Virus record (IMG/VR): IMGVR_UViG_3300045988_060233
Length of the DNA stretch: 39,231 nucleotides
Source: a virus
Strand: one strand, 5' to 3'
Shown here: positions 100 to 11,960 of the stretch, piece by piece
Layout of the letters: each line of letters begins with the position of its first letter
Numbering within the stretch: the first letter of the stretch is position 1
Translations under genes and position numbers: made by a program
The notes under the pieces: model-generated
The model's database searches: none
Seen by the model: only the letters and a program-made list of their open reading frames with translations
Told to the model about the DNA's origin: nothing

Positions 100-693
100 T
101 TTTTTAACACCGATGGCCGTTTCAAAATTGCAGAGTATATGCACTTTTGCTCCAAACTGCTTGTCAAAGAGCCGAAGGAACGCGGCAAGGCTCCGGCCAT
201 GATTGTGTTCTGCGCGTTTGAGCAGATGCAGGAAATTACCGAATGGGGAAAAAAGTATGGGTTCATGAAGTCCTACCCGCTATTTTTCGTAAAAAACTAC
301 TCGGCCCAGGTGCTCAAAGCAAATATGCGTATCGTAGGCGCTACCGAGTTTGCTGTCGTGCTCTACCGCGACAAGCTCCCAAAATTCAACGGCGGCGGCC
401 ACATGGTCTATAACTGGTTCGAGTGGCGGCGCGATTCCGGCAGGGAGTATCCAAAAATCCACCCCACCCAAAAGCCGGTAAACCTGTTGAAACGCCTGAT
501 TGAAATTTTCACAGACCCCGGCGACGTTGTGATTGACCCATGCGCCGGTTCCGGCTCCACGCTCCGCGCCGCCTATGAATGCGGGCGCGACAGCTACGGT
601 TTTGAGGTTGACCGCAGGTTTTACGCCCTAGCCAAAGAAAAAATGCTCGACTTTTCCCAAGAGCAAATGAAGTTGGAGCAAATCGCAACATGA
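1..693 (+). CDS. DNA methyltransferase, beta-class N6A/N4C type, 3' part (continues from 39049 across the junction)
   Basis: Frame 1 is open from base 1 (IPYNIG...). HPTQKP and VIDPCAGSGST (motif I) lie downstream of the DPPY-like DIPY (motif IV); order IV then I indicates beta class. Stop at 691-693. Confidence 0.8.
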   Translation: MPYNIGANAYASNPVWYNGGDNKNGESKLAKKNFFNTDGRFKIAEYMHFCSKLLVKEPKERGKAPAMIVFCAFEQMQEITEWGKKYGFMKSYPLFFVKNYSAQVLKANMRIVGATEFAVVLYRDKLPKFNGGGHMVYNWFEWRRDSGREYPKIHPTQKPVNLLKRLIEIFTDPGDVVIDPCAGSGSTLRAAYECGRDSYGFEVDRRFYALAKEKMLDFSQEQMKLEQIAT

Positions 694-1676: not shown

Positions 1677-2060
1677 ATGGACGTATTAGAGTACGAAAAG
1701 GCACGCATTCGGATGTGTCGCACGATGATTCTAAAAGAGGGCGGGTGCGAAGCCGGCCCGTTGTTCAATGGCTTAAAACGCAGATGCGGGTTTGCCGCAT
1801 CTATTGCCGAAAATATGGATGAGAATGCAATCAGAAAGAATATTGACATCGTAATTAAGTGGGCAAAAGACCACCACGTCAAGACTAGACAGAGTGAGTT
1901 CTTGAAGATGTTCCCGAATGCACCAATAGATGAAGATGATGGAATTTTGTGTATTAGACCTTGCAACGTTGATGAAAGCATTGGATGCACAAATGAAAAA
2001 GGATGCGATGGCTGCAGGCGCAAATACTGGCTCACGGAGGTAACCGACAATGAAAATTAA
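1677..2060 (+). CDS. Hypothetical Cys-rich protein (127 aa)
   Basis: ATG 1677 after AAGGAG (1664-1669), in frame with track ORF 1617..2060. Confidence 0.55.
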   Translation: MDVLEYEKARIRMCRTMILKEGGCEAGPLFNGLKRRCGFAASIAENMDENAIRKNIDIVIKWAKDHHVKTRQSEFLKMFPNAPIDEDDGILCIRPCNVDESIGCTNEKGCDGCRRKYWLTEVTDNEN

Positions 2061-2223
2061 ACTCAAGCGTTGCCCATTCTGCGGTTCTACAGCCGGGTTA
2101 TATGAAAGCTATGACGGTATGTATGTAGTGCAGTGCAACTACTGCAGCATCGGAACTATCCACATGAAAAACAAGCAGGACGCAATTGAGTTGTGGAATC
2201 GCAGAACGGAGGTGACCCCATGA
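2050..2223 (+). CDS. Lar-family restriction-alleviation-like zinc-ribbon protein (57 aa, not in ORF track)
   Basis: GGAGGT 9 nt upstream. Translation MKIKLKRCPFCGSTAG...VQCNYCS...DAIELWNRRTEVTP matches the CPFCG...C..C...A...WNRR pattern of Lar-type proteins. Confidence 0.7.
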   Translation: MKIKLKRCPFCGSTAGLYESYDGMYVVQCNYCSIGTIHMKNKQDAIELWNRRTEVTP

Positions 2224-2224
2224 C
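2212..2224 (+). repeat. 13-nt direct repeat GTGACCCCATGAC (copy 1), spans a start codon
   Basis: Exact copy at 2436-2448. Confidence 0.9.
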
Positions 2225-2420
2225 CATTATTCTTGTTATCGCCGCCGTCTGTGTTTACGACCTGTGCGGCCTGCTCGCCGTCCTGTACATCAACCACACA
2301 GACCGAATGGACACCGTAGACGGCGCAGACAACGTTATTGTCCTTATTTTCTGGCCGCTACTTGTCGTAACCCGAAGCGGCATTGCATGTTATAGAATCA
2401 TAATGAGGCTTCTAAAATGA
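2220..2420 (+). CDS. Small membrane protein (66 aa, two hydrophobic segments)
   Basis: ATG 2220 (ATGA overlap with the Lar-like stop). GGAGGTG 7 nt upstream. Hydrophobic sequence IILVIAAVCVYDLCGLLAVL. Confidence 0.55.
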   Translation: MTIILVIAAVCVYDLCGLLAVLYINHTDRMDTVDGADNVIVLIFWPLLVVTRSGIACYRIIMRLLK

Positions 2421-2435
2421 ATTCTACCCCAGGAT

Positions 2436-2448
2436 GTGACCCCATGAC
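2436..2448 (+). repeat. 13-nt direct repeat GTGACCCCATGAC (copy 2), spans a start codon
   Basis: Exact copy of 2212-2224. Confidence 0.9.
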
Positions 2449-2593
2449 AAAACAGCAACTAGTTGATGAATACGCCCGCAAACATCTTTGCGCAACGTGT
2501 GAGTGGAAGAATGACAATATTTGCACGCTGCCGCGCTGCATGAAAATGGAAGAAAGGAGCAAAAATGAGAGAAAGACCGCTCAACCTAGATGA
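2444..2593 (+). CDS. Small Cys-rich protein (49 aa, not in ORF track)
   Basis: ATG lies inside the duplicated initiation sequence. CATCEW...CTLPRC. Weak SD; overlaps the next gene. Confidence 0.35.
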   Translation: MTKQQLVDEYARKHLCATCEWKNDNICTLPRCMKMEERSKNERKTAQPR

Positions 2594-2954
2594 ATATGGA
2601 ATTTCAAAAGAAAGATACCTTGAATTAAAGCACTTTTGCAAAAGATACGCTGAAATGCGGTTGGAAATTGCTAGCGCAAGAGGGCTTGATTCGGTTTCAA
2701 ATGACGGTTTGCCGCACGGAAACGGAAAGTCAGACCCAACAGCTAGAAAGGCGGACAGAGCGCTAAAGTTAAGCACAGATGTCCGAATCATTGAGGACGC
2801 GGCAAGAGAAGCAGACCCTTTAAACTGGTGTGCTCTGTTGAAAAATGTAACAGAGGGGACGGCTTACGAATACCAGCCTGTGCATTGCGGCAGGCGGCAG
2901 TTTTACGAAAGCAGAAGAAAATTTTTCTGGCTTTTGGACAAGAAAAAAGGGTAA
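2565..2954 (+). CDS. Putative late-gene transcriptional activator (sigma region-4-like / RinA-ArpU-type)
   Basis: AAGGAG 5 nt upstream. C-terminal RRQFYESRRKFFWLL resembles region-4-type HTH ends. Sits immediately upstream of the packaging module. Confidence 0.4.
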   Translation: MRERPLNLDEYGISKERYLELKHFCKRYAEMRLEIASARGLDSVSNDGLPHGNGKSDPTARKADRALKLSTDVRIIEDAAREADPLNWCALLKNVTEGTAYEYQPVHCGRRQFYESRRKFFWLLDKKKG

Positions 2955-3052
2955 CTGTGGGGATGTTGTCAAGTGGTATTATGAATATGCTGGGAACTGT
3001 AAAGAGGGTACATTACAGTTCATAGCAAAACCTCCTATTCTCGATACTGACA

Positions 3053-3077
3053 GCCGGGAAAGACCGGCATTTTATTT
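3053..3077 (+). terminator. Weak intrinsic terminator-like hairpin
   Basis: GCCGG/CCGGC stem (3053-3057/3064-3068), 6-nt loop, then ATTTTATTT. Confidence 0.4.
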
Positions 3078-3270
3078 GCTGCATAGCCAGCCGCAAACTT
3101 GGCCTGACAAGTCAATACGGCAAGGGCGCTGCGCTCCGCAAGCTACGGCGTGGCAAAGGTGCAAGACCTATGTGCAGTACCAGAGGGCAGGGTCGCAACC
3201 TGTCTGTGTGAGCGGGCGCGGTATCCCTCACAAATGATGACAATGGTCGTGCAAACGGCAAGCCGCACAT

Positions 3271-3328
3271 GCCCTTGTAGCTAAATGGCAATAGCCTTGG
3301 TGTGCCGGTTCAAGTCCGGCTGAGGGCA
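3271..3328 (+). ncRNA. tRNA-like element lacking an anticodon arm (acceptor + D arm + T arm, 58 nt)
   Basis: Acceptor stem 3271-3277/3321-3327. D arm GCTA-AATGGCAA-TAGC. T arm GCCGG-TTCAAGT-CCGGC. Only 8 nt where the anticodon and variable arms belong. Discriminator A; no CCA. Confidence 0.55.
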
Positions 3329-3688
3329 CATGCTGGGTCGCTCCCACCGGTGAAAGCCCGGCGCAGGCAAAACGCGATAGATAACCTGAACGCTGTAAGC
3401 AAAGCGGCAAGCCGATCAGGAGCGCGGCGCGATGGCAGGTCGCAACGGGACTTCGAGAGCCTGAAAAAATCTGCCCGGCATCTGCTTGTGCGGACTCCGT
3501 TACTGACGCAGTTACGCATCGCCGAAACCAATAACATCAAAGCAGAGACCGCGGGTAAGCGCGCGGAATACAAGTGCTGCTGAATTACGTTGCGGATTTA
3601 CTCCCCGCAACGGGTGAGGTCGGCACAGCATACACCGACAGGGCGGGAACGCGCTTTTCCTCCGGCGCAAAGGGATTTTGGGGGATAT

Positions 3689-3716
3689 AAGCCTACACAA
3701 ATTGTGTGGGCTTTTT
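3689..3716 (+). terminator. Intrinsic terminator ending the non-coding locus
   Basis: GCCTACAC/GTGTGGGC stem (one G-U) followed by TTTTTGTGTT. Lies just upstream of the terS SD. Confidence 0.7.
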
Positions 3717-3739
3717 GTGTTGTAAAACGAGGGGATAAA

Positions 3740-4165
3740 GTGGCATCAAGAAAAAATCCGGTGGGCGCACCACCTAAATACAGAAGCGTAAAGGCAATGC
3801 AAGAAAAGATTGATGCCTACTTTGAAGCCTGCAAAGGACAGCCGTTCTTAGACGATAACGGCGAACCAATGCGAAATAAAAACGGCTATATCATCTATGA
3901 CGATAAAAAGCCGCCTACTGTGACAGGATTGGCGCTTGCGCTTGGTTTTGCATCAAGGCAGGCGCTTTTGAATTACCAAAATAAACCAGAGTTCAATGAC
4001 ACGATTACGCGTGCAAAGACCCGTTGTGAACAGTACGCCGAAGAAAGACTGTATGACAAAGACGGCTCCGGCGGCGCACAGTTCAGCTTGCGGGCAAATT
4101 TCGGATGGCAGGATAAGCCGGAACAACAGCAGGATAGCGAGGTGCTAATCATAGATGACTTGTAA
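3740..4165 (+). CDS. terS: Terminase small subunit
   Basis: GTG 3740 after GAGGGG. PPKY...YF..C...PTVTGLALALGF.SRQ.L..Y...F...I.RAK...E...FSLRANFGWQD pattern. Directly upstream of terL. Confidence 0.7.
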   Translation: MASRKNPVGAPPKYRSVKAMQEKIDAYFEACKGQPFLDDNGEPMRNKNGYIIYDDKKPPTVTGLALALGFASRQALLNYQNKPEFNDTITRAKTRCEQYAEERLYDKDGSGGAQFSLRANFGWQDKPEQQQDSEVLIIDDL

Positions 4166-5426
4166 GCTATCGGGGATTGTTTCCCCTTGCTTCTCCAAAG
4201 TCCACCGTGAAATCAAGGCAGGCAATGTAAAAGAGCTTGTCGCAAAGGGCGGACGCGGCGGTACAAAATCCAGCTATATTAGCATAGAGCTAATTTTGCA
4301 GCTGCTAAAGCATCCGCAATGCCACGCGGCGGTTTTCCGCAAGGTCGGAAACACACTGCGCACAAGCGTGTATGCGCAAATCGTTTGGGCTATCAATGAG
4401 CTTGGATTGCACGACAATTTTCGTTGCACAGTCTCCCCGATGGAATGCACCTATTTGCCAACAGGGCAAAAGGTGCTTTTTTTCGGTGTTGATGACCCCG
4501 GCAAGGTAAAGTCAATCAAAGTGCCGTTTGGTTATATCGGTATCTGCTGGTTTGAAGAGCTTGACCAGTTTGACGGTGAAGAACAAATCCGAAACGTTGA
4601 ACAGTCCTGCCTACGCGGCGGTGACTGGTTCATTACGTTCAAGAGCTTCAACCCGCCAGCAATGGCGCGGAACTGGGCAAACGGCTACGCACTGAAAGCC
4701 CGAGATGGAAAGCTGATACATCATAGCACCTACAAAACAACGCCCGCAGAATGGCTCGGAGAGCGGTTTATGGCCGATGCGGAATATTTGCAGCGCACAA
4801 ACGAAACAGCCTACCGACACGAGTATCTGGGCGAGGTTGTAGGCAGCGGCACGGCAGTATTCGAAAACCTGAAAATTCAACCAATCACAGACGAGCAGGT
4901 GAAAACATTCGACAGAATCAAGCGCGGCGTTGACTGGGGCTGGTATCCTGACCCATGGGCATACAATGCAATGCACTATGACGCAGCGCGGCGCACGCTG
5001 TACATCTTCGATGAACTGACACGGCGTAGAACCAGCAACAGGGACACTGCGCAACTGCTTTTGGATAGAGGGCTGACGCGTGAGGATAAAGTCTGCGCGG
5101 ATAGCGCCGAGCCAAAATCTATTGCGGACTATAACAAGTACGGCGTAAAGACGTTCCCAGCCCGCAAGGGGCCGAAATCGGTTCGGTATGGCACAAAATG
5201 GTTGCAAATGCTGGAAGCTATTGTCATTGACCCTGAACGTTGCCCGGACACAGCAAAGGAATTTAGCGAGTATGAATACGAGCGGGACGGCAAGACGGGA
5301 GAAGTGCTGGAAGGCTACCCGGATTTGAACAACCACCACATTGACGCAGTGCGGTATGCGATGGAGAGCACAGCGAACAAGGCGGGAGACACCGCCGAAA
5401 CCAGATACAAGAGCATTTTCGTGTAA
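4155..5426 (+). CDS. terL: Terminase large subunit (PBSX/XtmB-like)
   Basis: Walker A-like GGRGGTKS. FFGVDDPGKVKSIK...WFEE motif. 423 aa. Confidence 0.85.
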   Translation: MTCKLSGIVSPCFSKVHREIKAGNVKELVAKGGRGGTKSSYISIELILQLLKHPQCHAAVFRKVGNTLRTSVYAQIVWAINELGLHDNFRCTVSPMECTYLPTGQKVLFFGVDDPGKVKSIKVPFGYIGICWFEELDQFDGEEQIRNVEQSCLRGGDWFITFKSFNPPAMARNWANGYALKARDGKLIHHSTYKTTPAEWLGERFMADAEYLQRTNETAYRHEYLGEVVGSGTAVFENLKIQPITDEQVKTFDRIKRGVDWGWYPDPWAYNAMHYDAARRTLYIFDELTRRRTSNRDTAQLLLDRGLTREDKVCADSAEPKSIADYNKYGVKTFPARKGPKSVRYGTKWLQMLEAIVIDPERCPDTAKEFSEYEYERDGKTGEVLEGYPDLNNHHIDAVRYAMESTANKAGDTAETRYKSIFV

Positions 5427-5441: not shown

Positions 5442-6827
5442 GTGAAAACATACCAAGATTTTGTAGCGGTTGGCGAGGACGAAAAGGCCCGCATGAGTTT
5501 CATACTGGGCGCAATCAATGAGTATAAGGCCGACCATACCACACGCCTTGCAGCGAACGCAAACAAGTATTACCACGGAGAAAACCCTACAATCAACAAA
5601 TACGAGAAAATCATTTACGACATGCAGGGCAAGGCGCACCGTGACATGTACACGGCAAATCACAAGATTGCAAGCAAGTTCTTTGGCTTGGCCGTAGACC
5701 AAGAAGTTTCGTATTTGCTGGGCAACGGCGTTTCATTTCAGGAGCCGGAGACAAAAAAGGCGCTGGGTGCGACGTTTGACGAAGATATTATGGACGCTGC
5801 CCGCCATGCTTTGATTGACGGGCAGTCTTTCGTGTTTTGGAATCTCGACCATGTGCAGGTGTTCGCAGCAGAGGAATTTGTTCCCCTGTACGACGAGGAA
5901 GACGGCTCCATTAAAGCCGGAATCCGTTTCTGGCAGGTGGCAGACAACAAGCCGCTGCGCACCACGCTGTACGAGCTTGACGGCTACACAGAGTACCTAA
6001 AGCCCAAGAGCGATGATATGGCAATTCTCAAGCCGAAACGCGCTTACAAGTTGAAGCTGCGCACCAGCGAGGCAGACGGCACAGAAATTTATGACGGTGA
6101 GAACTATCCGGGATTTCCCATTATCCCGCTGAAAAACGGCGAGCAGGCCCACAGCGAGCTACAGGGGCGACAGAATACCATTGACGCGCTCGACCTTGCA
6201 AGCTCCAACATGGTAAACAACGTTGACGAAGGCAACCTGATTTTCTGGGTTCTGACCAACTGCGGAGGCATGGACGAGCAGGACGATACAAAGTTCATTG
6301 AGCGTCTGAAAACGACCCATGTCGCCCATGCTGACGGTGACGAGGGCGCAAAGGCCACGCCACAGAGCATCGAAGCTCCGTTCCAAGGCACGCAGGCGAC
6401 TATTGATATGCTCACCAAAAAGTTATACGAGGACTTTCAGGCCTTTGATTCTGCCGCTGTCAGCGCTGGCAACCAAACTGCAACGGCCATCAAGGCCAGT
6501 TATGTGCCGCTTGACCTGAAAACGGACAAGTTTGAAAGCTGCGTGACGCGCTGCATCAAGGGCATTTTGGCGGTTGCCGGGCTTGATGACGATCCGACAT
6601 ACACGCGCAACCAGATTATCAACAAGCAGGAAGAAGCACAGACAGTGCTACTCGGCGCAGAATACTACGATGATGAGTACATCACCAAAAAGCTGCTGAC
6701 CATTAACGGTGATGCTGACCAGTACGAAGATTTGATGAAGCGAAAGGCGGCAGAGGAACTTGAAAGAACCAAAAATCCCGATTTCGTTACACCTATGGAG
6801 AGAAATGAGCCGAATGGAACAGAATAA
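5442..6827 (+). CDS. Portal protein (SPP1 gp6-like)
   Basis: 461 aa, positioned after terL. Acidic C-terminus. GTG start after GGTGAG. Confidence 0.75.
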   Translation: MKTYQDFVAVGEDEKARMSFILGAINEYKADHTTRLAANANKYYHGENPTINKYEKIIYDMQGKAHRDMYTANHKIASKFFGLAVDQEVSYLLGNGVSFQEPETKKALGATFDEDIMDAARHALIDGQSFVFWNLDHVQVFAAEEFVPLYDEEDGSIKAGIRFWQVADNKPLRTTLYELDGYTEYLKPKSDDMAILKPKRAYKLKLRTSEADGTEIYDGENYPGFPIIPLKNGEQAHSELQGRQNTIDALDLASSNMVNNVDEGNLIFWVLTNCGGMDEQDDTKFIERLKTTHVAHADGDEGAKATPQSIEAPFQGTQATIDMLTKKLYEDFQAFDSAAVSAGNQTATAIKASYVPLDLKTDKFESCVTRCIKGILAVAGLDDDPTYTRNQIINKQEEAQTVLLGAEYYDDEYITKKLLTINGDADQYEDLMKRKAAEELERTKNPDFVTPMERNEPNGTE

Positions 6828-6999
6828 GGAATATTCCATCCGCATTGACGGAATAAAACCGATGGATTTTACCATTACTCCGGTTTACGCGGATGACAAC
6901 ATCCCGGAAAAAGAACTGAAACGGCTTGACCATTTTGAAATTTCCGGGAGACTTCCAGCTGATTGCAAATGGGAGCTTTACACCCGTGAAAAAATCTGA
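6814..6999 (+). CDS. Small hypothetical protein (61 aa)
   Basis: ATG 6814, 11 nt after GGAGAG. Fills the gap between portal and MuF gene. Start uncertain (6805 also possible). Confidence 0.4.
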   Translation: MEQNKEYSIRIDGIKPMDFTITPVYADDNIPEKELKRLDHFEISGRLPADCKWELYTREKI

Positions 7000-7012
7000 T
7001 TACGCTCACAAA

Positions 7013-8818
7013 ATGACAGATGCCGAGCTTGCAAAGCTGGAACAGCGAATCGCAAAGCTGTACAAAGAAGCTGCTGATGAATTGACCGACACGGTGAAAG
7101 CCTATTTTGAGCAGTTCGAGAAGCGTGATGCAGCCATGAAAGAAAAGCTGGATGCAGGCGAAATCACCGAACAGCAGTACAAGCAATGGCGGCTTGCGCA
7201 GATGGGGCGAGGCAAGCGTTTTGCGGCGCTGCGGGACAAGGTGGCAGAAAGATACACTGATGCCAATGCAACGGCTGTGGCATACGTCAATGACGCCACG
7301 CCGGGCATTTACAGTTTGAACCGCAATTACTCTGCTTACAAAATAGAGCAGGTCTCCGACAAAGCAGATTTTACGCTGTGGGATGAGCAGACAGTGAAAC
7401 GTCTGATTGTGGAACAGCCTGACCTTATGCCGTACTACCCGCCAAAGCGTGCATTGCAGCGCGGCATTGATTTGAAGTACGGAAAGCAGCAAATCACAGC
7501 CAGCGTCACAAGCTCCATCCTGCAAGGCAAAAGCATATCGAAAATCGCTAACGACCTGCAAGGCCGTATGCAGAACATGAACCGCACGAGCGCTATCAGA
7601 ACGGCCAGAACGGCGGTCACAGGGGCGCAAAATGCGGGGCGGCTAGATACTTACAGCGCAGCGCGGGACATGGGCATCAAGCTCAAAAAGCGTTGGCTTG
7701 CCACTCTGGACGGCAGAACCAGACATGAGCACAGAATCTTGGATGGGCAGACAGTAGACATTGACAAACCGTTTACCGTTGACGGTTACGAGCTTATGTA
7801 TCCGGGAGACAGTTCCGCACCGGGTTATCTTGTGTATAACTGCCGATGCACCCAAATTGCAGAGGTTGACGGAGAAGACACTAGCAGCGGCGGCAGACGC
7901 GCTATTGACCCCAAAACAGGGAAATCTGTTCTTGTGGGAGATATAACCTATGCAGAGTGGGCGGGGTGGAAAAAAGAAGAAAAAGCGCAGGAAAACATTG
8001 ACCTACGAGGAAGAAAATCCATTTGGAGTGCTTGGGACGACTACAGAAAACGCTTTGTCGGTCACGGTGTGGAGGTTAAAGCACAAGACATTGAAAATAA
8101 TACACTTCTTGATACCGTCAAAATTTCCAAACTTGACAAAAATGTTTCTGCTAGCATTGTAGACGCGATTGACGGCCTTGGAAACCGATATTATTCTCCG
8201 CTTACAAAGCTTACCGTAATGGACAAAACCGACAGTTTGCTTTCACACGCCTTTGCCGTTGTAAATCATCAATGGGGGCTGGGAAGCGCGGAAATGAGAA
8301 TAAACCCGCTGAAAGTAACAGATTCTGGTAGGAAACATATTTTTGACCTTTCGCAAAAAGGGTATTGTGTTAAATTTGCGGCGGGAGATGAAATAAAATA
8401 TGTTATTACGCACGAATATGGACACAGCTTGTTAAATATCGGAGAAAAATTGCCCGGAAAAGCGCAAAATTTTGCACTTGTTGATTTTACGGCAGTTAAA
8501 AAGGCGAGAAAAGAAATCGAACCTATTTGGGACGAATACTGTAACACAGTGCAAGCAGCGAAAGACAACTATGACAAAATCCGTAAACCGATTGAAACCA
8601 AAATGATTTTTGGAACAGGTGAAGTGACGGACGCAGACAGAGAAGCAATTGCGACAGCAAAAAAGAAATACGACAGCATTAAAATCAGTGATTACTCTCT
8701 GACAAATGCGGATGAATTTGTTGCAGAATGCTTTGCCGATGCGGAAGTTGGCACAAATCCGAGCGAATATTCTTTGGCGGTTTCCAATATAATAAAAAAA
8801 TATTTCGGAAAGGCGTAA
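7013..8818 (+). CDS. Head morphogenesis protein (SPP1 gp7 / Mu F family) fused to a C-terminal HExxH...E metallopeptidase-like domain
   Basis: MuF motif LDGRTRHEHRILDGQ...YNCRC. C-terminal HEYGH (8411-8425) and NADEFVAECFA (8705-8737) resemble anthrax LF-type zinc sites. ATG 7013 chosen over TTG 6926. Confidence 0.7.
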   Translation: MTDAELAKLEQRIAKLYKEAADELTDTVKAYFEQFEKRDAAMKEKLDAGEITEQQYKQWRLAQMGRGKRFAALRDKVAERYTDANATAVAYVNDATPGIYSLNRNYSAYKIEQVSDKADFTLWDEQTVKRLIVEQPDLMPYYPPKRALQRGIDLKYGKQQITASVTSSILQGKSISKIANDLQGRMQNMNRTSAIRTARTAVTGAQNAGRLDTYSAARDMGIKLKKRWLATLDGRTRHEHRILDGQTVDIDKPFTVDGYELMYPGDSSAPGYLVYNCRCTQIAEVDGEDTSSGGRRAIDPKTGKSVLVGDITYAEWAGWKKEEKAQENIDLRGRKSIWSAWDDYRKRFVGHGVEVKAQDIENNTLLDTVKISKLDKNVSASIVDAIDGLGNRYYSPLTKLTVMDKTDSLLSHAFAVVNHQWGLGSAEMRINPLKVTDSGRKHIFDLSQKGYCVKFAAGDEIKYVITHEYGHSLLNIGEKLPGKAQNFALVDFTAVKKARKEIEPIWDEYCNTVQAAKDNYDKIRKPIETKMIFGTGEVTDADREAIATAKKKYDSIKISDYSLTNADEFVAECFADAEVGTNPSEYSLAVSNIIKKYFGKA

Positions 8819-10586: not shown

Positions 10587-11519
10587 ATGGCTGCAAAAAC
10601 TAACCTGACTACCGCCGCCCAGATTACTGTCAATGCCCGCGAGGTTGACTTTGTCACCCGCTTTGGCAAGAACTGGGACGCGCTGCGCACCATCATGGGC
10701 ATTATGCGCCCCATCCGCAAGGCCCCCGGCACGAAGCTGGTCTCCTATGAGGCCGCTGTTGACGGCACTCTGGCTGGCGGTACGTCCGTTGCCGAAGGCG
10801 ATGAGATTCCGCTGACCAAGATGAAGGTCGAGCCCAAAACCTACGGCGACATTGAGATTGCCAAGTATGCTAAGAGCGTATCCGTTGAGGCAGTCGCCAA
10901 GTACGGCGCAGATGTTGCCGTTGAAAAGACCGACGAGGCGTTCCTTGTCGCCCTGCAGAACAAGGTTCTGGGTGACTTCTACACCTTCCTGAACACTGGC
11001 TCTCTGGCTGTAGCTGCTACCACTTGGCAGCAGGGCCTTGCTCTGGCAAAGGGCAACGTGCTGGACAAGTTCGCCAGCATGGACCGTGATGTTACCGAGG
11101 TTGTCGGCTTTGCCAACATTCTGGACTTCTACGGCTATCTGGGCGACAAGGAAATCACCACGCAGACCGCCTTCGGCCTGACCTATGTTCAGAATTTCAT
11201 GGGCTACTCTACCCTGTTCCTGCTGCCAGAAAAGTACATTGCAAAGAACAAGGTTATCGCCGTGCCTGTTGAGAATATCGACCTGTATTACATCGACCCC
11301 GCCGACAGCGATTTCGCCAAGCTGGGCCTGAACTATACCGTCGAGGGCGAAACAAACCTGATTGGTGTGCATGTTGACGGCGACTACAGCCGCGCAACTG
11401 GCGATATGTACGCTCTGATGGGCATGAAGCTGTGGGCAGAGTACCTGGACGGCATCGCTGTTGCCACCATTACGCCCGCAGAAACCCGGAGCGCAAAAAC
11501 TGCCAAGGCAGCACAGTAA
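10587..11519 (+). CDS. Major capsid protein
   Basis: 310 aa, AAGGAG SD, follows the scaffold gene. Confidence 0.8.
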   Translation: MAAKTNLTTAAQITVNAREVDFVTRFGKNWDALRTIMGIMRPIRKAPGTKLVSYEAAVDGTLAGGTSVAEGDEIPLTKMKVEPKTYGDIEIAKYAKSVSVEAVAKYGADVAVEKTDEAFLVALQNKVLGDFYTFLNTGSLAVAATTWQQGLALAKGNVLDKFASMDRDVTEVVGFANILDFYGYLGDKEITTQTAFGLTYVQNFMGYSTLFLLPEKYIAKNKVIAVPVENIDLYYIDPADSDFAKLGLNYTVEGETNLIGVHVDGDYSRATGDMYALMGMKLWAEYLDGIAVATITPAETRSAKTAKAAQ

Positions 11520-11534: not shown

Positions 11535-11960
11535 ATGCTTGAAGAATTGATGAGGGAGTGCCGGAACTGGTTTGTCACATCGAATGGCGTCCATCTGGGC
11601 GAGTTCAGCATCAAGGGCGGGAGCATTGCGCTCCCTTTTTTGCGTGCCGGACAGTATTTCCGCATTGTGGGCAGCGTTCTGAACGATGGTGTGTATCAAT
11701 ACGGCAACTGCTCGTTGAGGGATGAAACCTTTGACGGGGCTATCTGGGCCATGGCCGTGCCTTCCGAATTTCTGCGCCTTGAAGAAGAAATCAAGGCATG
11801 GCGCACGCAGTACGAGAACGCCGCAAATAGCCCATTTCAAAGCGAGAGCTTTGCGGGGTATAGTTACACCAAATCGAGCGCGAACGGCAATTCTGGCGGC
11901 TCTGTGACGAGCTGGCAGGGCGTGTTTGCTTCTCGGCTGAACAAATGGAGAAAGCTATGA
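11535..11960 (+). CDS. Hypothetical head-tail connector-region protein
   Basis: Position only. GAGGGAG SD. Confidence 0.5.
   Translation: MLEELMRECRNWFVTSNGVHLGEFSIKGGSIALPFLRAGQYFRIVGSVLNDGVYQYGNCSLRDETFDGAIWAMAVPSEFLRLEEEIKAWRTQYENAANSPFQSESFAGYSYTKSSANGNSGGSVTSWQGVFASRLNKWRKL

What the first reader, a model, noticed from the sequence alone, without database searches (positions are those of the whole stretch)
2955..3739. About 0.78 kb gene-free, GC-rich, terminator-bounded locus between the late regulator and terS: candidate large structured phage RNA
Seen:
- In an otherwise tightly packed genome, 2955-3739 has no ORF with an SD. The track ORFs here overlap on both strands and are Arg/Ala/Cys-rich.
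- A strong intrinsic terminator (3689-3716) ends the region just before the terS SD. A weaker one lies at 3053-3077.
- By hand count, GCAA occurs 14 times in 3080-3716; about 2-3 are expected for random sequence of that length. All copies are in plus-strand orientation. GAAA and GTAA loops also sit on short stems (for example 3349-3358).
- Helices found by eye: long-range 12 bp 3126-3137/3419-3430 (one G-U); 8 bp 3588-3595/3605-3612; 3170-3175/3265-3270; 3181-3206.
- Duplicated mini-hairpin CGGCAAGCCG at 3256-3265 and 3405-3414. Duplicated GGTCGCAAC at 3191-3199 and 3438-3446.
- A tRNA-like element is embedded at 3271-3328.
Known: GOLLD and ROOL are large ornate RNAs often carried by Firmicutes prophages, frequently next to or enclosing tRNAs.
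Inference: this is a plus-strand structured RNA of about 0.65 kb. It may belong to one of those classes or be a new one. I cannot confirm a match to either consensus from memory. A pac recognition region could share the same DNA.
Basis: partly seen in the sequence, partly recalled or inferred. Interest (0 to 1): 0.8.

Follow-up and report, generated by a model that had tools for sequence, protein, structure and literature searches.

The report
Mosaic structured-RNA leader before phage terminase
The 0.78 kb gap before the terminase genes of this gut phage is a real non-coding, plus-strand string of about ten independently folding RNA modules, one already catalogued as the D12-methyl motif and one a tRNA lacking its anticodon arm; it is not a single GOLLD- or ROOL-type giant RNA.

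Summary
Region 2955-3739 is non-coding. It is bounded by terminators and is rich in GCAA on the plus strand only. It contains a tRNA-like element at 3271-3328.

- Rfam finds no GOLLD or ROOL. It finds the known D12-methyl motif at 3588-3651 (89.6 bits) and a tRNA lacking its anticodon arm (39 bits).
- About 300 related gut-phage loci show a mosaic of modules: terminator hairpin, three-way-junction Domain 1, M2, tRNA-like slot (real tRNAs in relatives), core, M5, long hairpin, pseudoknot, D12-methyl, CCUCC/GGGGG hairpin, terminator.
- Local helices show compensatory changes: 11 of 30 pairs in Domain 1 and 22 of 124 pairs elsewhere.
- Modules are gained, lost and swapped independently. Only D12-methyl and what follows it stay fixed, always just upstream of the first packaging gene (terS, a DNA methyltransferase or another terL).

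Best reading: this is a tRNA-punctuated leader of the late operon. Its last module most likely gates or assists read-through of the terminator at 3689-3716. That mechanism is inferred, not shown.

The finding is moderately interesting. It gives a new context and extension for a known motif, plus several modules absent from Rfam.

The parts
2955..3052 (+). Spacer after the upstream ORF. It holds the conserved element TATTATGAATATGCTGG, a hairpin (2997-3002/3013-3018) and TTCATAGC. A promoter-proximal role is possible but untested.
   Evidence: The same element follows both kinds of upstream regulator gene in relatives. The scan found no sigma-70-type promoter on the plus strand in 2400-4200.
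3053..3077 (+). T0: a terminator-like hairpin GCCGG/CCGGC followed by AUUUUAUUUG
   Evidence: Found by the terminator scan. It is 99% paired in 20 relatives. In other loci, different GC hairpins or a tRNA 3' end replace it, always followed by TTTTATA.
3077..3179 (+). Domain 1, a multi-helix junction. Helices: P1 3077-3085/3171-3179; P1x 3086-3088/3125-3127; P1a 3090-3093/3118-3121 (hypervariable); P1b 3128-3133/3149-3154 plus 3136-3138/3146-3148; P1c 3157-3160/3166-3169.
   Evidence: Alignment A2 holds 44 distinct sequences. 94.6% of cells are paired and 11 of 30 pairs have compensatory changes. Slid controls give 25-48% paired. No Rfam match.
3181..3270 (+). M2, three hairpins: 3181-3184/3203-3206 with 3188-3191/3199-3202; 3208-3212/3227-3231 with 3214-3215/3225-3226; 3246-3249/3256-3259. 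Some relatives carry an unrelated module here instead.
   Evidence: Compensatory changes occur in the second and third hairpins. The alternative module is visible.
3271..3328 (+). tRNA-like element without an anticodon arm: acceptor 3271-3277/3321-3327, D stem 3280-3283/3292-3295, T stem 3304-3308/3316-3320 with loop UUCAAGU
   Evidence: Rfam tRNA 39 bits against gathering score 29; ARAGORN negative. It is conserved in 61 of 127 unique contexts. Other relatives carry canonical tRNAs at the same slot.
3334..3391 (+). Core module, three short hairpins (3334-3337/3343-3346, 3347-3350/3358-3361, 3362-3364/3374-3376) with nearly invariant loops. In the examples examined it usually begins 3-5 nt after the tRNA or tRNA-like 3' end.
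   Evidence: Present in 112 of 127 contexts. Adjacency to tRNAs is shown. One CCGG/CCGG to CAGG/CCUG compensatory change. The weak group-II-D1D4-4 hit (25.7 bits, gathering score 49) falls here.
3392..3477 (+). M5: hairpin 3392-3395/3405-3408 and stem 3434-3440/3469-3475. Some relatives carry an unrelated module here.
   Evidence: Compensatory changes in both helices. The module swap is visible.
3481..3546 (+). Long hairpin (D-E): 3481-3487/3540-3546, 3488-3492/3515-3519, 3493-3496/3510-3513, 3498-3501/3505-3508, with a 20 nt 3' internal loop (3520-3539)
   Evidence: Five of 13 inner pairs are compensatory. Further variants appear. Present in 87 of 127 contexts.
3549..3578 (+). Pseudoknot module: S1 3549-3553/3562-3566, A-rich loop AAUACAAG, and a weak S2 (3558-3561/3575-3578) in this window
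   Evidence: S1 has a C-G to U-A change. In relatives S2 takes at least 7 different complementary sequences with the same topology. The window's own S2 is no better than shuffles.
3588..3651 (+). D12-methyl RNA motif (Rfam RF02950): P1 3588-3595/3605-3612, P2 3619-3623/3635-3639, conserved tail AGGGCGGGAACG
   Evidence: 89.6 bits against gathering score 57, full-length match. P2 covaries: GU..AC changes to AC..GU in 8 of 20 sequences.
3651..3684 (+). Hairpin GCGC/GCGC (3651-3654/3665-3668). Its loop CCUCC (3659-3663) can pair with GGGGG (3680-3684).
   Evidence: 100% paired, with a U-G to U-A change in 6 of 20 sequences. Different sequence but the same pairing in L234. Absent from type B and C contexts.
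3689..3716 (+). Strong intrinsic terminator: 11 bp stem 3689-3699/3703-3713 plus U-run
   Evidence: Found by the terminator scan. Invariant in relatives. It forms in the MFE with no competing structure.
3727..3742 (+). terS ribosome-binding site (GAGGGGA) and GTG start at 3740
   Evidence: Read directly from the sequence. The ORF from 3740 matches PF16677 GP3_package and the PHROG terminase small subunit family.

Best explanation
WHAT IT IS
The region is the non-coding, rightward-transcribed leader of the packaging/late operon of a human-gut siphophage lineage. Its closest tie to a cellular genome is a 202 kb contig of a Gemmiger (Oscillospiraceae) MAG. The leader is a string of independently folding RNA modules that recombine freely between phages.

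SHOWN
- Each module has its own covarying local helices, and no long-range helix ties modules together.
- One slot holds a tRNA-like element without an anticodon arm. Relatives carry real tRNAs (Thr, Trp, Met, Ser and others) there or nearby, all on the same strand.
- The last module is the known D12-methyl motif. In every D12-selected locus examined it sits directly upstream of the next gene. A terminase or Dam-methylase gene was confirmed within 3 kb in 116 of 141 contexts.

INFERRED
- Late transcription, probably driven by the upstream RinA-like or unknown regulator, runs through the array.
- RNase P and RNase Z recognise the acceptor/T-arm 'elbow' of the tRNA or tRNA-like element. They cut at about 3270/3271 and 3328/3329 and split the leader into stable structured pieces.
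- The core hairpins, starting 3-5 nt after the tRNA-like 3' end, then cap the new 5' end of the downstream RNA.
- The pseudoknot, D12-methyl and CCUCC/GGGGG block act in cis on the transcribing polymerase or on the terminator at 3689-3716. This gates or promotes read-through into terS, much as a put-like or protein-assisted antitermination element would.
For: Non-coding:
- No ORF is conserved.

Plus-strand RNA:
- All 76 ARAGORN tRNAs in 127 related contexts are on the plus strand.
- Both terminators are on the plus strand.
- GCAA outnumbers TTGC 15 to 1.

Structure:
- Domain 1 is 94.6% paired, with 11 of 30 pairs compensatory.
- The other 22 helices are 93.7% paired, with 22 of 124 pairs compensatory. 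Slid controls give 33-41%.
- The pseudoknot S2 has at least 7 different complementary versions.

Known pieces:
- D12-methyl scores 89.6 bits and tRNA 39 bits.

Modularity:
- 147 unique contexts fall into dozens of different module orders.
- Module frequencies range from 48% to 88%.
- The core-to-D12 distance ranges from 136 to 413 nt.
- Minimal loci keep only D12, the hairpin and the terminator.

Position:
- 116 of 141 unique downstream contexts have terS/terL, Dam methylase then terS, or a second terL type within 3 kb on the same strand.
- The Dam-like methylase is inserted after the terminator in L006-type loci.

Need for read-through:
- No sigma-70 promoter-like site lies on the plus strand of 2400-4200.
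- Only 23 nt separate the terminator from the terS start.
- The terminator forms in the MFE with no competing fold.

Upstream gene:
- In L004-type relatives it resembles RinA / sigma-70 region 4 (27 bits, below the 31.9 cut-off).

tRNA to core adjacency:
Against: - No transcript data were available. The promoter, processing sites and read-through are all inferred.
- The window's own upstream protein has no assigned family, so 'late regulator' is unverified.
- Type B and C contexts have D12-methyl but no terminator directly after it. A purely terminator-specific role therefore cannot be general.
- D12-methyl shows no alternative antiterminator pairing, and no similarity to any known antitermination RNA was tested or found.
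- The leader itself contains the upstream terminator-like hairpin T0, which a downstream cis element could not override.
- Whole-region folding energy is unremarkable.
- The modules could equally be trans-acting stable RNAs.
Confidence: 0.55

Rival explanations
1. The modules are trans-acting stable small RNAs, for example host-takeover or anti-defence decoys. They would be co-transcribed with tRNAs and released by processing. D12-methyl plus the terminator would be the 3' end of such an sRNA, and its position before terS would be incidental (a permissive 'moron' slot).
For: - Rfam files D12-methyl as an sRNA gene.
- Content varies like a cassette array and is interleaved with tRNAs.
- Each unit is preceded by a hairpin plus TTTTATA junction.
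- A strong terminator ends the array.
- From my own knowledge: T4 encodes stable RNAs of unknown function inside its tRNA cluster.
Against: - D12-methyl keeps its position right before the first packaging gene in three unrelated gene contexts, including ones without a terminator.
- No internal promoter was found.
- No target or partner is known.
Confidence: 0.2
2. The region is one large ornate RNA of about 0.65 kb with a global tertiary fold, either a new GOLLD/ROOL-like class or a distant member of one.
For: - Its size, GC content, many GCAA-containing loops, phage setting and tRNA neighbourhood match what is described for GOLLD and ROOL (PMC5737381).
- 68 of 127 contexts carry all five main sequence anchors, in roughly the same order where the order was examined.
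Against: - No GOLLD or ROOL match appears even at E<=10, nor at gathering score in 16 relatives.
- The proposed long-range helices fail.
- Modules are deleted, duplicated, reordered and swapped with no compensating change elsewhere.
- Whole-region z-score is -0.59.
Confidence: 0.1
3. The region is a DNA-level signal: a pac or cos recognition region, or a binding array for the late regulator, with the RNA structure incidental.
For: - It lies immediately upstream of the terminase genes.
- The near-palindromic junction motif TATGCTGCATA is repeated one to three times per locus.
- No canonical promoter was found, so an unusual regulator site must exist somewhere in the region.
Against: - Compensatory base changes that preserve helices are not expected for protein-binding DNA.
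- There is strong strand asymmetry.
- The same D12-methyl sequence precedes two unrelated terminase systems and methylase genes.
- tRNA genes are embedded in the region.
Confidence: 0.08
4. The region is the decaying remnant of a tRNA gene cluster and its spacers, with no function of its own.
For: - The window's only tRNA-like element lacks an anticodon arm.
- Relatives have zero to three real tRNAs in the same region.
- Frequent deletions and fusions cut through modules.
Against: - The truncated tRNA-like element is itself conserved in 61 of 127 contexts with intact acceptor, D and T arms.
- Non-tRNA modules show compensatory changes and nearly invariant loops across 72-99% identical relatives.
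Confidence: 0.05

Closest known systems
D12-methyl RNA motif (Rfam RF02950; Weinberg et al. 2017 motif set)
   Same: Positions 3588-3651 match the whole 64 nt model at 89.6 bits: two hairpins, the conserved linker ACGGGUGAG, the P2 loop CACAGCAUA and the tail AGGGCGGGAACG. In relatives such as L006, a D12-class (Dam-like) methyltransferase gene follows it, which is the association that, from memory, gave the motif its name.
   Different: - In this window the next gene is terS, with no methylase between.
- The motif is the last module of a ~640 nt structured array rather than a stand-alone element.
- A conserved 3' extension (the hairpin with CCUCC/GGGGG plus a terminator, or GGGG followed by a U-run) and a preceding pseudoknot are not part of the 64-position Rfam model.
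GOLLD and ROOL large ornate RNAs
   Same: They share a phage or prophage setting, frequent neighbourhood with tRNAs and a size of several hundred nucleotides with many helices (description in PMC5737381).
   Different: There is no covariance-model match. The architecture here is not fixed, no multi-stem long-range organisation is supported, and the modules recombine independently.
Phage tRNA clusters with co-transcribed stable RNAs (T4 tRNA region, species 1 and 2 RNAs), and tRNA-punctuated transcripts such as MALAT1-mascRNA. This comparison rests on my own knowledge and was not tested here.
   Same: Structured non-tRNA RNAs are interleaved with tRNAs on one strand. A tRNA-like element could serve as an RNase P / RNase Z processing signal.
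   Different: No sequence relationship was tested. Here the array sits in the leader of the packaging operon and the tRNA-like element lacks the anticodon arm.
HK022 put RNA and other cis-acting processive antitermination RNAs (a 'works-like' comparison only, from my own knowledge)
   Same: D12-methyl is a compact two-hairpin RNA of about 65 nt. It lies upstream of a terminator and of a long operon that must be read through.
   Different: No sequence or structural similarity was tested, and no evidence of polymerase binding exists. Some D12-methyl copies have no terminator directly downstream.
HDV-like 'theta' ribozymes that follow tRNAs in gut phages (from my own knowledge), and other self-cleaving ribozymes
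   Same: The conserved structured core begins 3-5 nt after the tRNA or tRNA-like 3' end.
   Different: By manual inspection the core cannot be threaded onto the nested double-pseudoknot order P1-P2-P3-P1-P4-P2. Rfam gives no HDV, hammerhead or twister match. Twister-sister scores only 14 bits against a gathering score of 34.
Catalogue of 10,006 candidate structured RNAs in IMG/VR viruses (PMC10690425)
   Same: That survey reports candidate structures upstream of large-terminase and N6-adenine methyltransferase genes, and tRNA-like candidates in gut phages.
   Different: I could not check whether these particular modules are in that catalogue. No function or array organisation is described there.

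Membership tests
D12-methyl RNA (RF02950) | Full-length covariance-model match above the curated gathering score | tested here: met
   89.6 bits against 57, model positions 1-64 of 64, at 3588-3651 on the plus strand
D12-methyl RNA (RF02950) | Two hairpins whose pairing is kept by compensatory change | tested here: met
   In P2, two pairs switch G-C/U-A to A-U/C-G in 8 of 20 sequences. P1 has one compensatory pair, and further variants such as CGUUGCAAAG/CUUUGCAACG occur.
D12-methyl RNA (RF02950) | Location upstream of a D12-class N6-adenine DNA methyltransferase gene (the name-giving association, recalled from memory) | tested here: not met
   In the window the next gene is terS. The association holds in 10 of 141 related unique contexts, where a Dam-like gene lies between the terminator and terS. 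As I recall the family description, this association is frequent rather than obligatory.
tRNA (RF00005) | Acceptor, D and T arms with a canonical T-loop | tested here: met
   39 bits against gathering score 29. Arms lie at 3271-3277/3321-3327, 3280-3283/3292-3295 and 3304-3308/3316-3320.
tRNA (RF00005) | Anticodon arm and anticodon | tested here: not met
   Four nucleotides stand where the model has 18. ARAGORN finds no tRNA in the window.
GOLLD / ROOL | Match to the family covariance model | tested here: not met
   Neither family is among the matches up to E=10 on 2900-3800. Neither appears at gathering score in the window or in 16 related loci.
GOLLD / ROOL | Conserved multi-junction architecture with long-range helices or pseudoknots spanning the RNA | tested here: not met
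   The proposed long-range helices have no compensatory support and break on module swap. Module content varies freely.
GOLLD / ROOL | Phage or prophage setting near tRNAs | tested here: met
   Terminase genes are adjacent. Relatives carry zero to three tRNAs inside the region. One relative lies on a 202 kb contig of a Gemmiger MAG.
Group II intron | Domain 1-4 model above threshold, domain V/VI, and an intron-encoded protein | tested here: not met
   group-II-D1D4-4 scores 25.7 bits against gathering score 49. No domain V/VI (Intron_gpII) match appears up to E=10. There is no conserved ORF.
Self-cleaving ribozymes (twister-sister, HDV-like, hammerhead) | Covariance-model match or a compatible core fold next to the tRNA | tested here: not met
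   Twister-sister scores 14 bits against gathering score 34, and no other ribozyme family appears up to E=10. Manual threading of the core onto the HDV-like helix order failed (sequence inspection).
Intrinsic (Rho-independent) terminator | GC-containing hairpin directly followed by a U-run on the transcribed strand | tested here: met
   3689-3713 has an 11 bp stem followed by TTTTTGTGTT. 3053-3068 has a 5 bp stem followed by ATTTTATTTG. Termination activity itself cannot be tested here.
put-like processive antitermination RNA | Nascent RNA binds RNA polymerase and suppresses downstream terminators | not testable with these tools
   Only position and shape are suggestive.

The most novel reading that the evidence does not exclude
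There are two parts to the most novel reading not excluded.
1. D12-methyl, with its flanking A-rich pseudoknot and CCUCC/GGGGG hairpin, is a phage-encoded cis-acting RNA that makes RNA polymerase read through the terminator guarding the packaging operon. This would be a put-like or factor-assisted antiterminator in phages of Gram-positive gut anaerobes.
2. The mosaic modules upstream are cut out at tRNA and tRNA-like punctuation marks into stable RNAs that act in trans. This would be a previously unrecognised kind of recombining 'RNA cassette array' in phage genomes.
Probability: 0.15. Interest if true: 0.8.

Novelty: new variant of a known kind. Interest (0 to 1): 0.55.

Why it matters
- D12-methyl has been an orphan motif known, as far as I recall, only from metagenomes. 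This locus and its roughly 300 relatives place it at the head of the packaging operon of a definable gut-phage lineage. They also link it to a cellular MAG contig (Gemmiger) and show that the methylase association is secondary.
- The locus supplies several covariation-supported modules that are absent from Rfam: the Domain 1 junction, the core, the long hairpin and the A-rich pseudoknot. It also supplies a conserved tRNA without an anticodon arm, which is a natural candidate for an RNase P/Z processing signal.
- If the cis-antitermination or processing model is right, it would be a tractable example of RNA-based control of late gene expression in phages of hard-to-culture gut Clostridia.
- If the model is wrong, the array is still a rich and unusually recombinogenic set of phage non-coding RNAs of unknown function.

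Tried and rejected
1. GOLLD, ROOL, tmRNA, RNase P, group I/II intron and ribozyme membership. Rfam at gathering and at E<=10 gave only D12-methyl and tRNA above threshold. group-II-D1D4-4 (25.7 against 49 bits) and twister-sister (14 against 34 bits) fall below threshold.
3. A long-range pairing of the D12 tail (3641-3646) with 3471-3476, suggested by RNAalifold. It is 98% paired but shows only one-sided pyrimidine changes against G. It competes with the covarying local stem 3434-3440/3469-3475 and is absent from loci that lack that module. It is therefore not required.
4. A helix between the A-rich linker before D12 P1 and the U-run after the tail. Linker types and tail types combine freely, so this is rejected.
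5. An HDV-like fold for the core was rejected by inspection.
6. The A-rich 'GAUAUAAAU' as a -10 promoter box. Spacing to any -35-like hexamer is wrong and the flanks covary as RNA stems.
7. Protein coding was rejected.
8. blastn against INPHARED phage genomes found no match.
9. The genome contigs pattern was too degenerate. Of 105 hits, only L093 and L131 are real.
10. Family assignment of the window's upstream 129-aa protein through Pfam, NCBIfam, PHROGs and PDB sequence search gave only an unknown-function PHROG.
11. The supplement of the Weinberg 2017 paper, for the D12-methyl description, is not held. A full-text search for 'D12-methyl' returned nothing.
12. Thermodynamic z-scores of the whole region are uninformative.
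Full report
SETTING

The window carries a phage packaging module. terS runs from 3740 to 4165 (GTG start; PF16677 GP3_package; PHROG terminase small subunit). terL runs from 4155 to 5426 (Terminase_3). A long rightward late operon follows.

The ORF that ends at 2954 (129 aa) has no Pfam, NCBIfam or PDB relative and hits only an unknown-function PHROG. The label 'late regulator' is therefore a guess from position. In some relatives, a RinA / sigma-70 region 4-like protein occupies that position, scoring 27 bits against a cut-off of 31.9.

CHECKING THE OBSERVATION

The region is non-coding. Each of six candidate ORFs between 3076 and 3700 picks up frameshifting indels and in-frame stops in most of 19 aligned relatives. 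Substitutions show no codon-position bias.

The two plus-strand terminators are present, at 3689-3713 (strong) and 3053-3068 (weak).

GCAA occurs 15 times in 3080-3716, against 7.5 +/- 2.3 in dinucleotide-preserving shuffles (p about 0.0025). The reverse-complement word TTGC occurs once.

The two duplicated strings exist. GC is modestly raised.

Whole-region folding energy is not unusual on either strand: z = -0.59 and -0.64. Only the last 199 nt stand out, with z = -2.65.

WHAT RFAM RECOGNISES

Only two things pass curated thresholds.
- The D12-methyl motif at 3588-3651 scores 89.6 bits against a gathering score of 57 and matches full length.
- With permissive filters, the tRNA model matches 3271-3328 at 39 bits against 29. 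The acceptor, D and T arms are aligned, and 4 nt stand in place of the anticodon arm. ARAGORN finds no tRNA or tmRNA.

GOLLD and ROOL do not appear even at E<=10. A group-II-D1D4-4 hit (25.7 against 49 bits) and a twister-sister hit (14 against 34 bits) are sub-threshold and lack the other defining parts of those families. Sixteen related loci likewise give only D12-methyl and tRNAs in this region.

RELATIVES

A search with terS fetched 80 IMG/VR loci whose upstream regions are 72-99% identical to the window in patches. Pattern scans with D12-methyl and with the core motif added more. Together these give 147 unique D12 contexts.

In species-representative genomes, the element appears on a 202 kb contig of a Gemmiger MAG (Oscillospiraceae, Bacillota) and on a contig binned as Bulleidia. 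The INPHARED phage collection has nothing similar.

THE REGION IS A MOSAIC

Sequence anchors for the modules occur in dozens of different orders and numbers. Among 127 contexts with enough upstream sequence:
- Domain 1 is present in 104;
- the core in 112;
- the long hairpin in 87;
- the tRNA-like element without an anticodon arm in 61;
- all five anchors together in only 68.

In addition, 57 contexts carry one to three canonical tRNAs: Thr-UGU, Trp, Met, Ser-GCU, an odd 84-86 nt 'His-AUG' and others. All 76 are on the plus strand.

The distance from core to D12-methyl ranges from 136 to 413 nt. Natural deletion and fusion variants exist. One example replaces D12 P1 with a whole Domain 1 (L093). 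Minimal loci (L032, L004) keep little more than D12-methyl, the following hairpin and the terminator next to terS.

Modules are joined at a recurring junction, TTTTATA|TGCTGCATAGC. Different GC hairpins or a tRNA 3' end precede it.

STRUCTURE

Domain 1 (3077-3179) was tested on 44 distinct sequences. 94.6% of cells are paired, 11 of 30 pairs have changes on both sides, and slid controls give 25-48% paired.

A map of 22 further local helices across 3053-3713 was tested on 20 sequences. 93.7% of cells are paired, 22 of 124 pairs have compensatory changes, and slid controls give 33-41%.

The long hairpin 3481-3546 has several fully compensated variants.

Between it and D12-methyl lies a recurring H-type pseudoknot with an A-rich third loop. 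Its second stem occurs in at least seven different complementary versions in relatives. The window's own copy has only a weak second stem.

Five to seven sequences break at seven of its pairs, chiefly the six relatives whose 3' module is swapped, and it overlaps a covarying Domain 1 helix. The proposed 3170-3175/3265-3270 helix clashes with the covarying closing stem of Domain 1.

The string CGGCAAGCCG is, in both copies, the 3' strand of a covarying hairpin plus a tail, not a hairpin itself.

No inter-module helix is supported. This argues against a single global fold.

WHAT STAYS CONSTANT

D12-methyl is always followed, on the same strand, by the start of the next gene. Three kinds of tail follow the conserved AGGGCGGG.
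- Type A (as in this window): a GCGC hairpin whose CCUCC loop can pair with GGGGG or GGAGG, then a strong terminator, then the ribosome-binding site of terS or of an inserted DNA methyltransferase.
- Type B: UAUGGGGAAUUUUUGAGG, leading into a small ORF or a different terL.
- Type C: a similar tail leading into a small zinc-ribbon ORF.

Of 141 unique downstream contexts, 116 have terS/terL, Dam-like methylase then terS, or the second terL type within 3 kb. The Dam-like gene in L006-type loci explains the motif's name.

The 5' modules and the 3' tails combine freely.

MECHANISM (INFERRED)

No sigma-70-like promoter lies on the plus strand of 2400-4200. Only 23 nt separate the terminator from the terS start codon. 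terS must therefore be reached by read-through of the terminator at 3689-3716. That terminator forms in the minimum-energy fold with no competing structure.

The simplest model has three steps.
1. Late transcription starts upstream of the array and runs through it.
2. The tRNA or tRNA-like elements are excised by RNase P and RNase Z, which need only the acceptor/T-arm half that this element retains (established enzymology). The core hairpins begin 3-5 nt after the tRNA-like 3' end and would cap the new 5' end.
3. The invariant 3' block of pseudoknot, D12-methyl and CCUCC/GGGGG hairpin acts in cis to let polymerase pass the terminator, either directly (put-like) or with a phage protein.

I give about 0.75 to the descriptive part (a modular non-coding late-operon leader with known and new RNA modules). 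I give about 0.3 to the specific gating and processing mechanism.

The main rival is that the modules are trans-acting stable RNAs in a permissive slot. The two readings are not mutually exclusive.

A DNA-level pac or cos role is unlikely. The helices covary, and the same element precedes two unrelated terminase systems.

NOVELTY

The 3' 64 nt are an already known Rfam family, and tRNA-like elements and terminators are ordinary. The new points are these:
- the placement of D12-methyl at the head of the packaging operon of a definable gut-phage lineage;
- its conserved 3' extension and preceding pseudoknot;
- several covariation-supported modules that are absent from Rfam;
- the conserved tRNA without an anticodon arm;
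- the highly recombinogenic cassette-like organisation.

A large survey has listed thousands of candidate structured RNAs in IMG/VR, including some upstream of terminase and N6-methyltransferase genes (PMC10690425). Parts of this array may therefore already be catalogued without interpretation.

Noticed in passing
L093:3610-3662 (- strand): This stretch matches Rfam RAGATH-5 above threshold (60.1 bits against gathering score 50). It lies elsewhere on the same 192 kb contig binned as Bulleidia.
   Followed up: no
L131 reverse strand ~1835-3124; L093 ~6300-7310: In the second phage type, a non-coding stretch of roughly 1.0-1.3 kb precedes terL. In L131 it runs from the stop of a 187-aa ORF of unknown family; the left boundary in L093 was not determined. 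It opens with a G/C-tract block (GGGGGTAGGGGGTACCCACCCCCCCC), possibly a cos region, and a further conserved piece ending in a terminator hairpin. The same RNA modules then follow.
   Followed up: partly
window 2984-3024: ATATGCTGG, a hairpin (2997-3002/3013-3018) and TTCATAGC look like the Domain 1 junction motif TATGCTG|CATAGC split by a hairpin. The element is conserved after both kinds of upstream regulator gene and may mark the late promoter or a regulator site.
   Followed up: partly
window 3611-3613, 3641-3647, 3672-3674: Four G-tracts surround D12-methyl P2. In GGGNGGG the middle base varies (C, T or A) while the Gs are mostly kept. This pattern is compatible with a G-quadruplex that has a hairpin in one loop. 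The idea is untested.
   Followed up: no
window 3659-3663 vs 3680-3684 and 3728-3733: CCUCC, which resembles the anti-Shine-Dalgarno sequence, can pair with GGGGG (GGAGG in 6 of 20 relatives). It could alternatively pair with the terS ribosome-binding site GAGGGG, giving a possible translational layer of control.
   Followed up: partly
L020:3467-3552, L025, L040, L054, L055, L064, L074: ARAGORN-86 nt 'tRNA-His (AUG)' elements here, and Rfam tRNA scores them 41-45 bits. They carry an odd insert that contains CATAGC and occupy the same slot as the window's tRNA-like element. It is unclear whether they are functional tRNAs.
   Followed up: partly
L006:2748-3986: The Dam-like methyltransferase inserted between the terminator and terS carries a long LESLQS-type tandem peptide repeat in its middle.
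   Followed up: no
L271, L234 downstream of D12-methyl: In some loci the gene after D12-methyl and the terminator begins with what looks, by eye, like a ParB-like N-terminus typical of phage ParB-methyltransferase fusions. L234 uses a different terminator sequence with the same layout.
   Followed up: no
window 139-693: The N6_N4 DNA methylase hit covers only profile positions 150-221, so the protein seems to lack the N-terminal part of the domain. A Lar-like restriction-alleviation ORF lies at 2050-2223.
   Followed up: no
window 11619-11635 (+): A clean intrinsic terminator (GGGAGC..GCUCCC plus a U-run) lies about 100 nt downstream of the ORF at 10587-11519, inside the late operon. It is another terminator that late transcription must pass.
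   Followed up: no
type B and C loci (e.g. L131, L191, L227): Small conserved ORFs sit between D12-methyl and the next large gene. Type B has a 52-aa ORF starting MDCRFDFEIY. Type C has a 49-aa ORF with two CxxC pairs.
   Followed up: no
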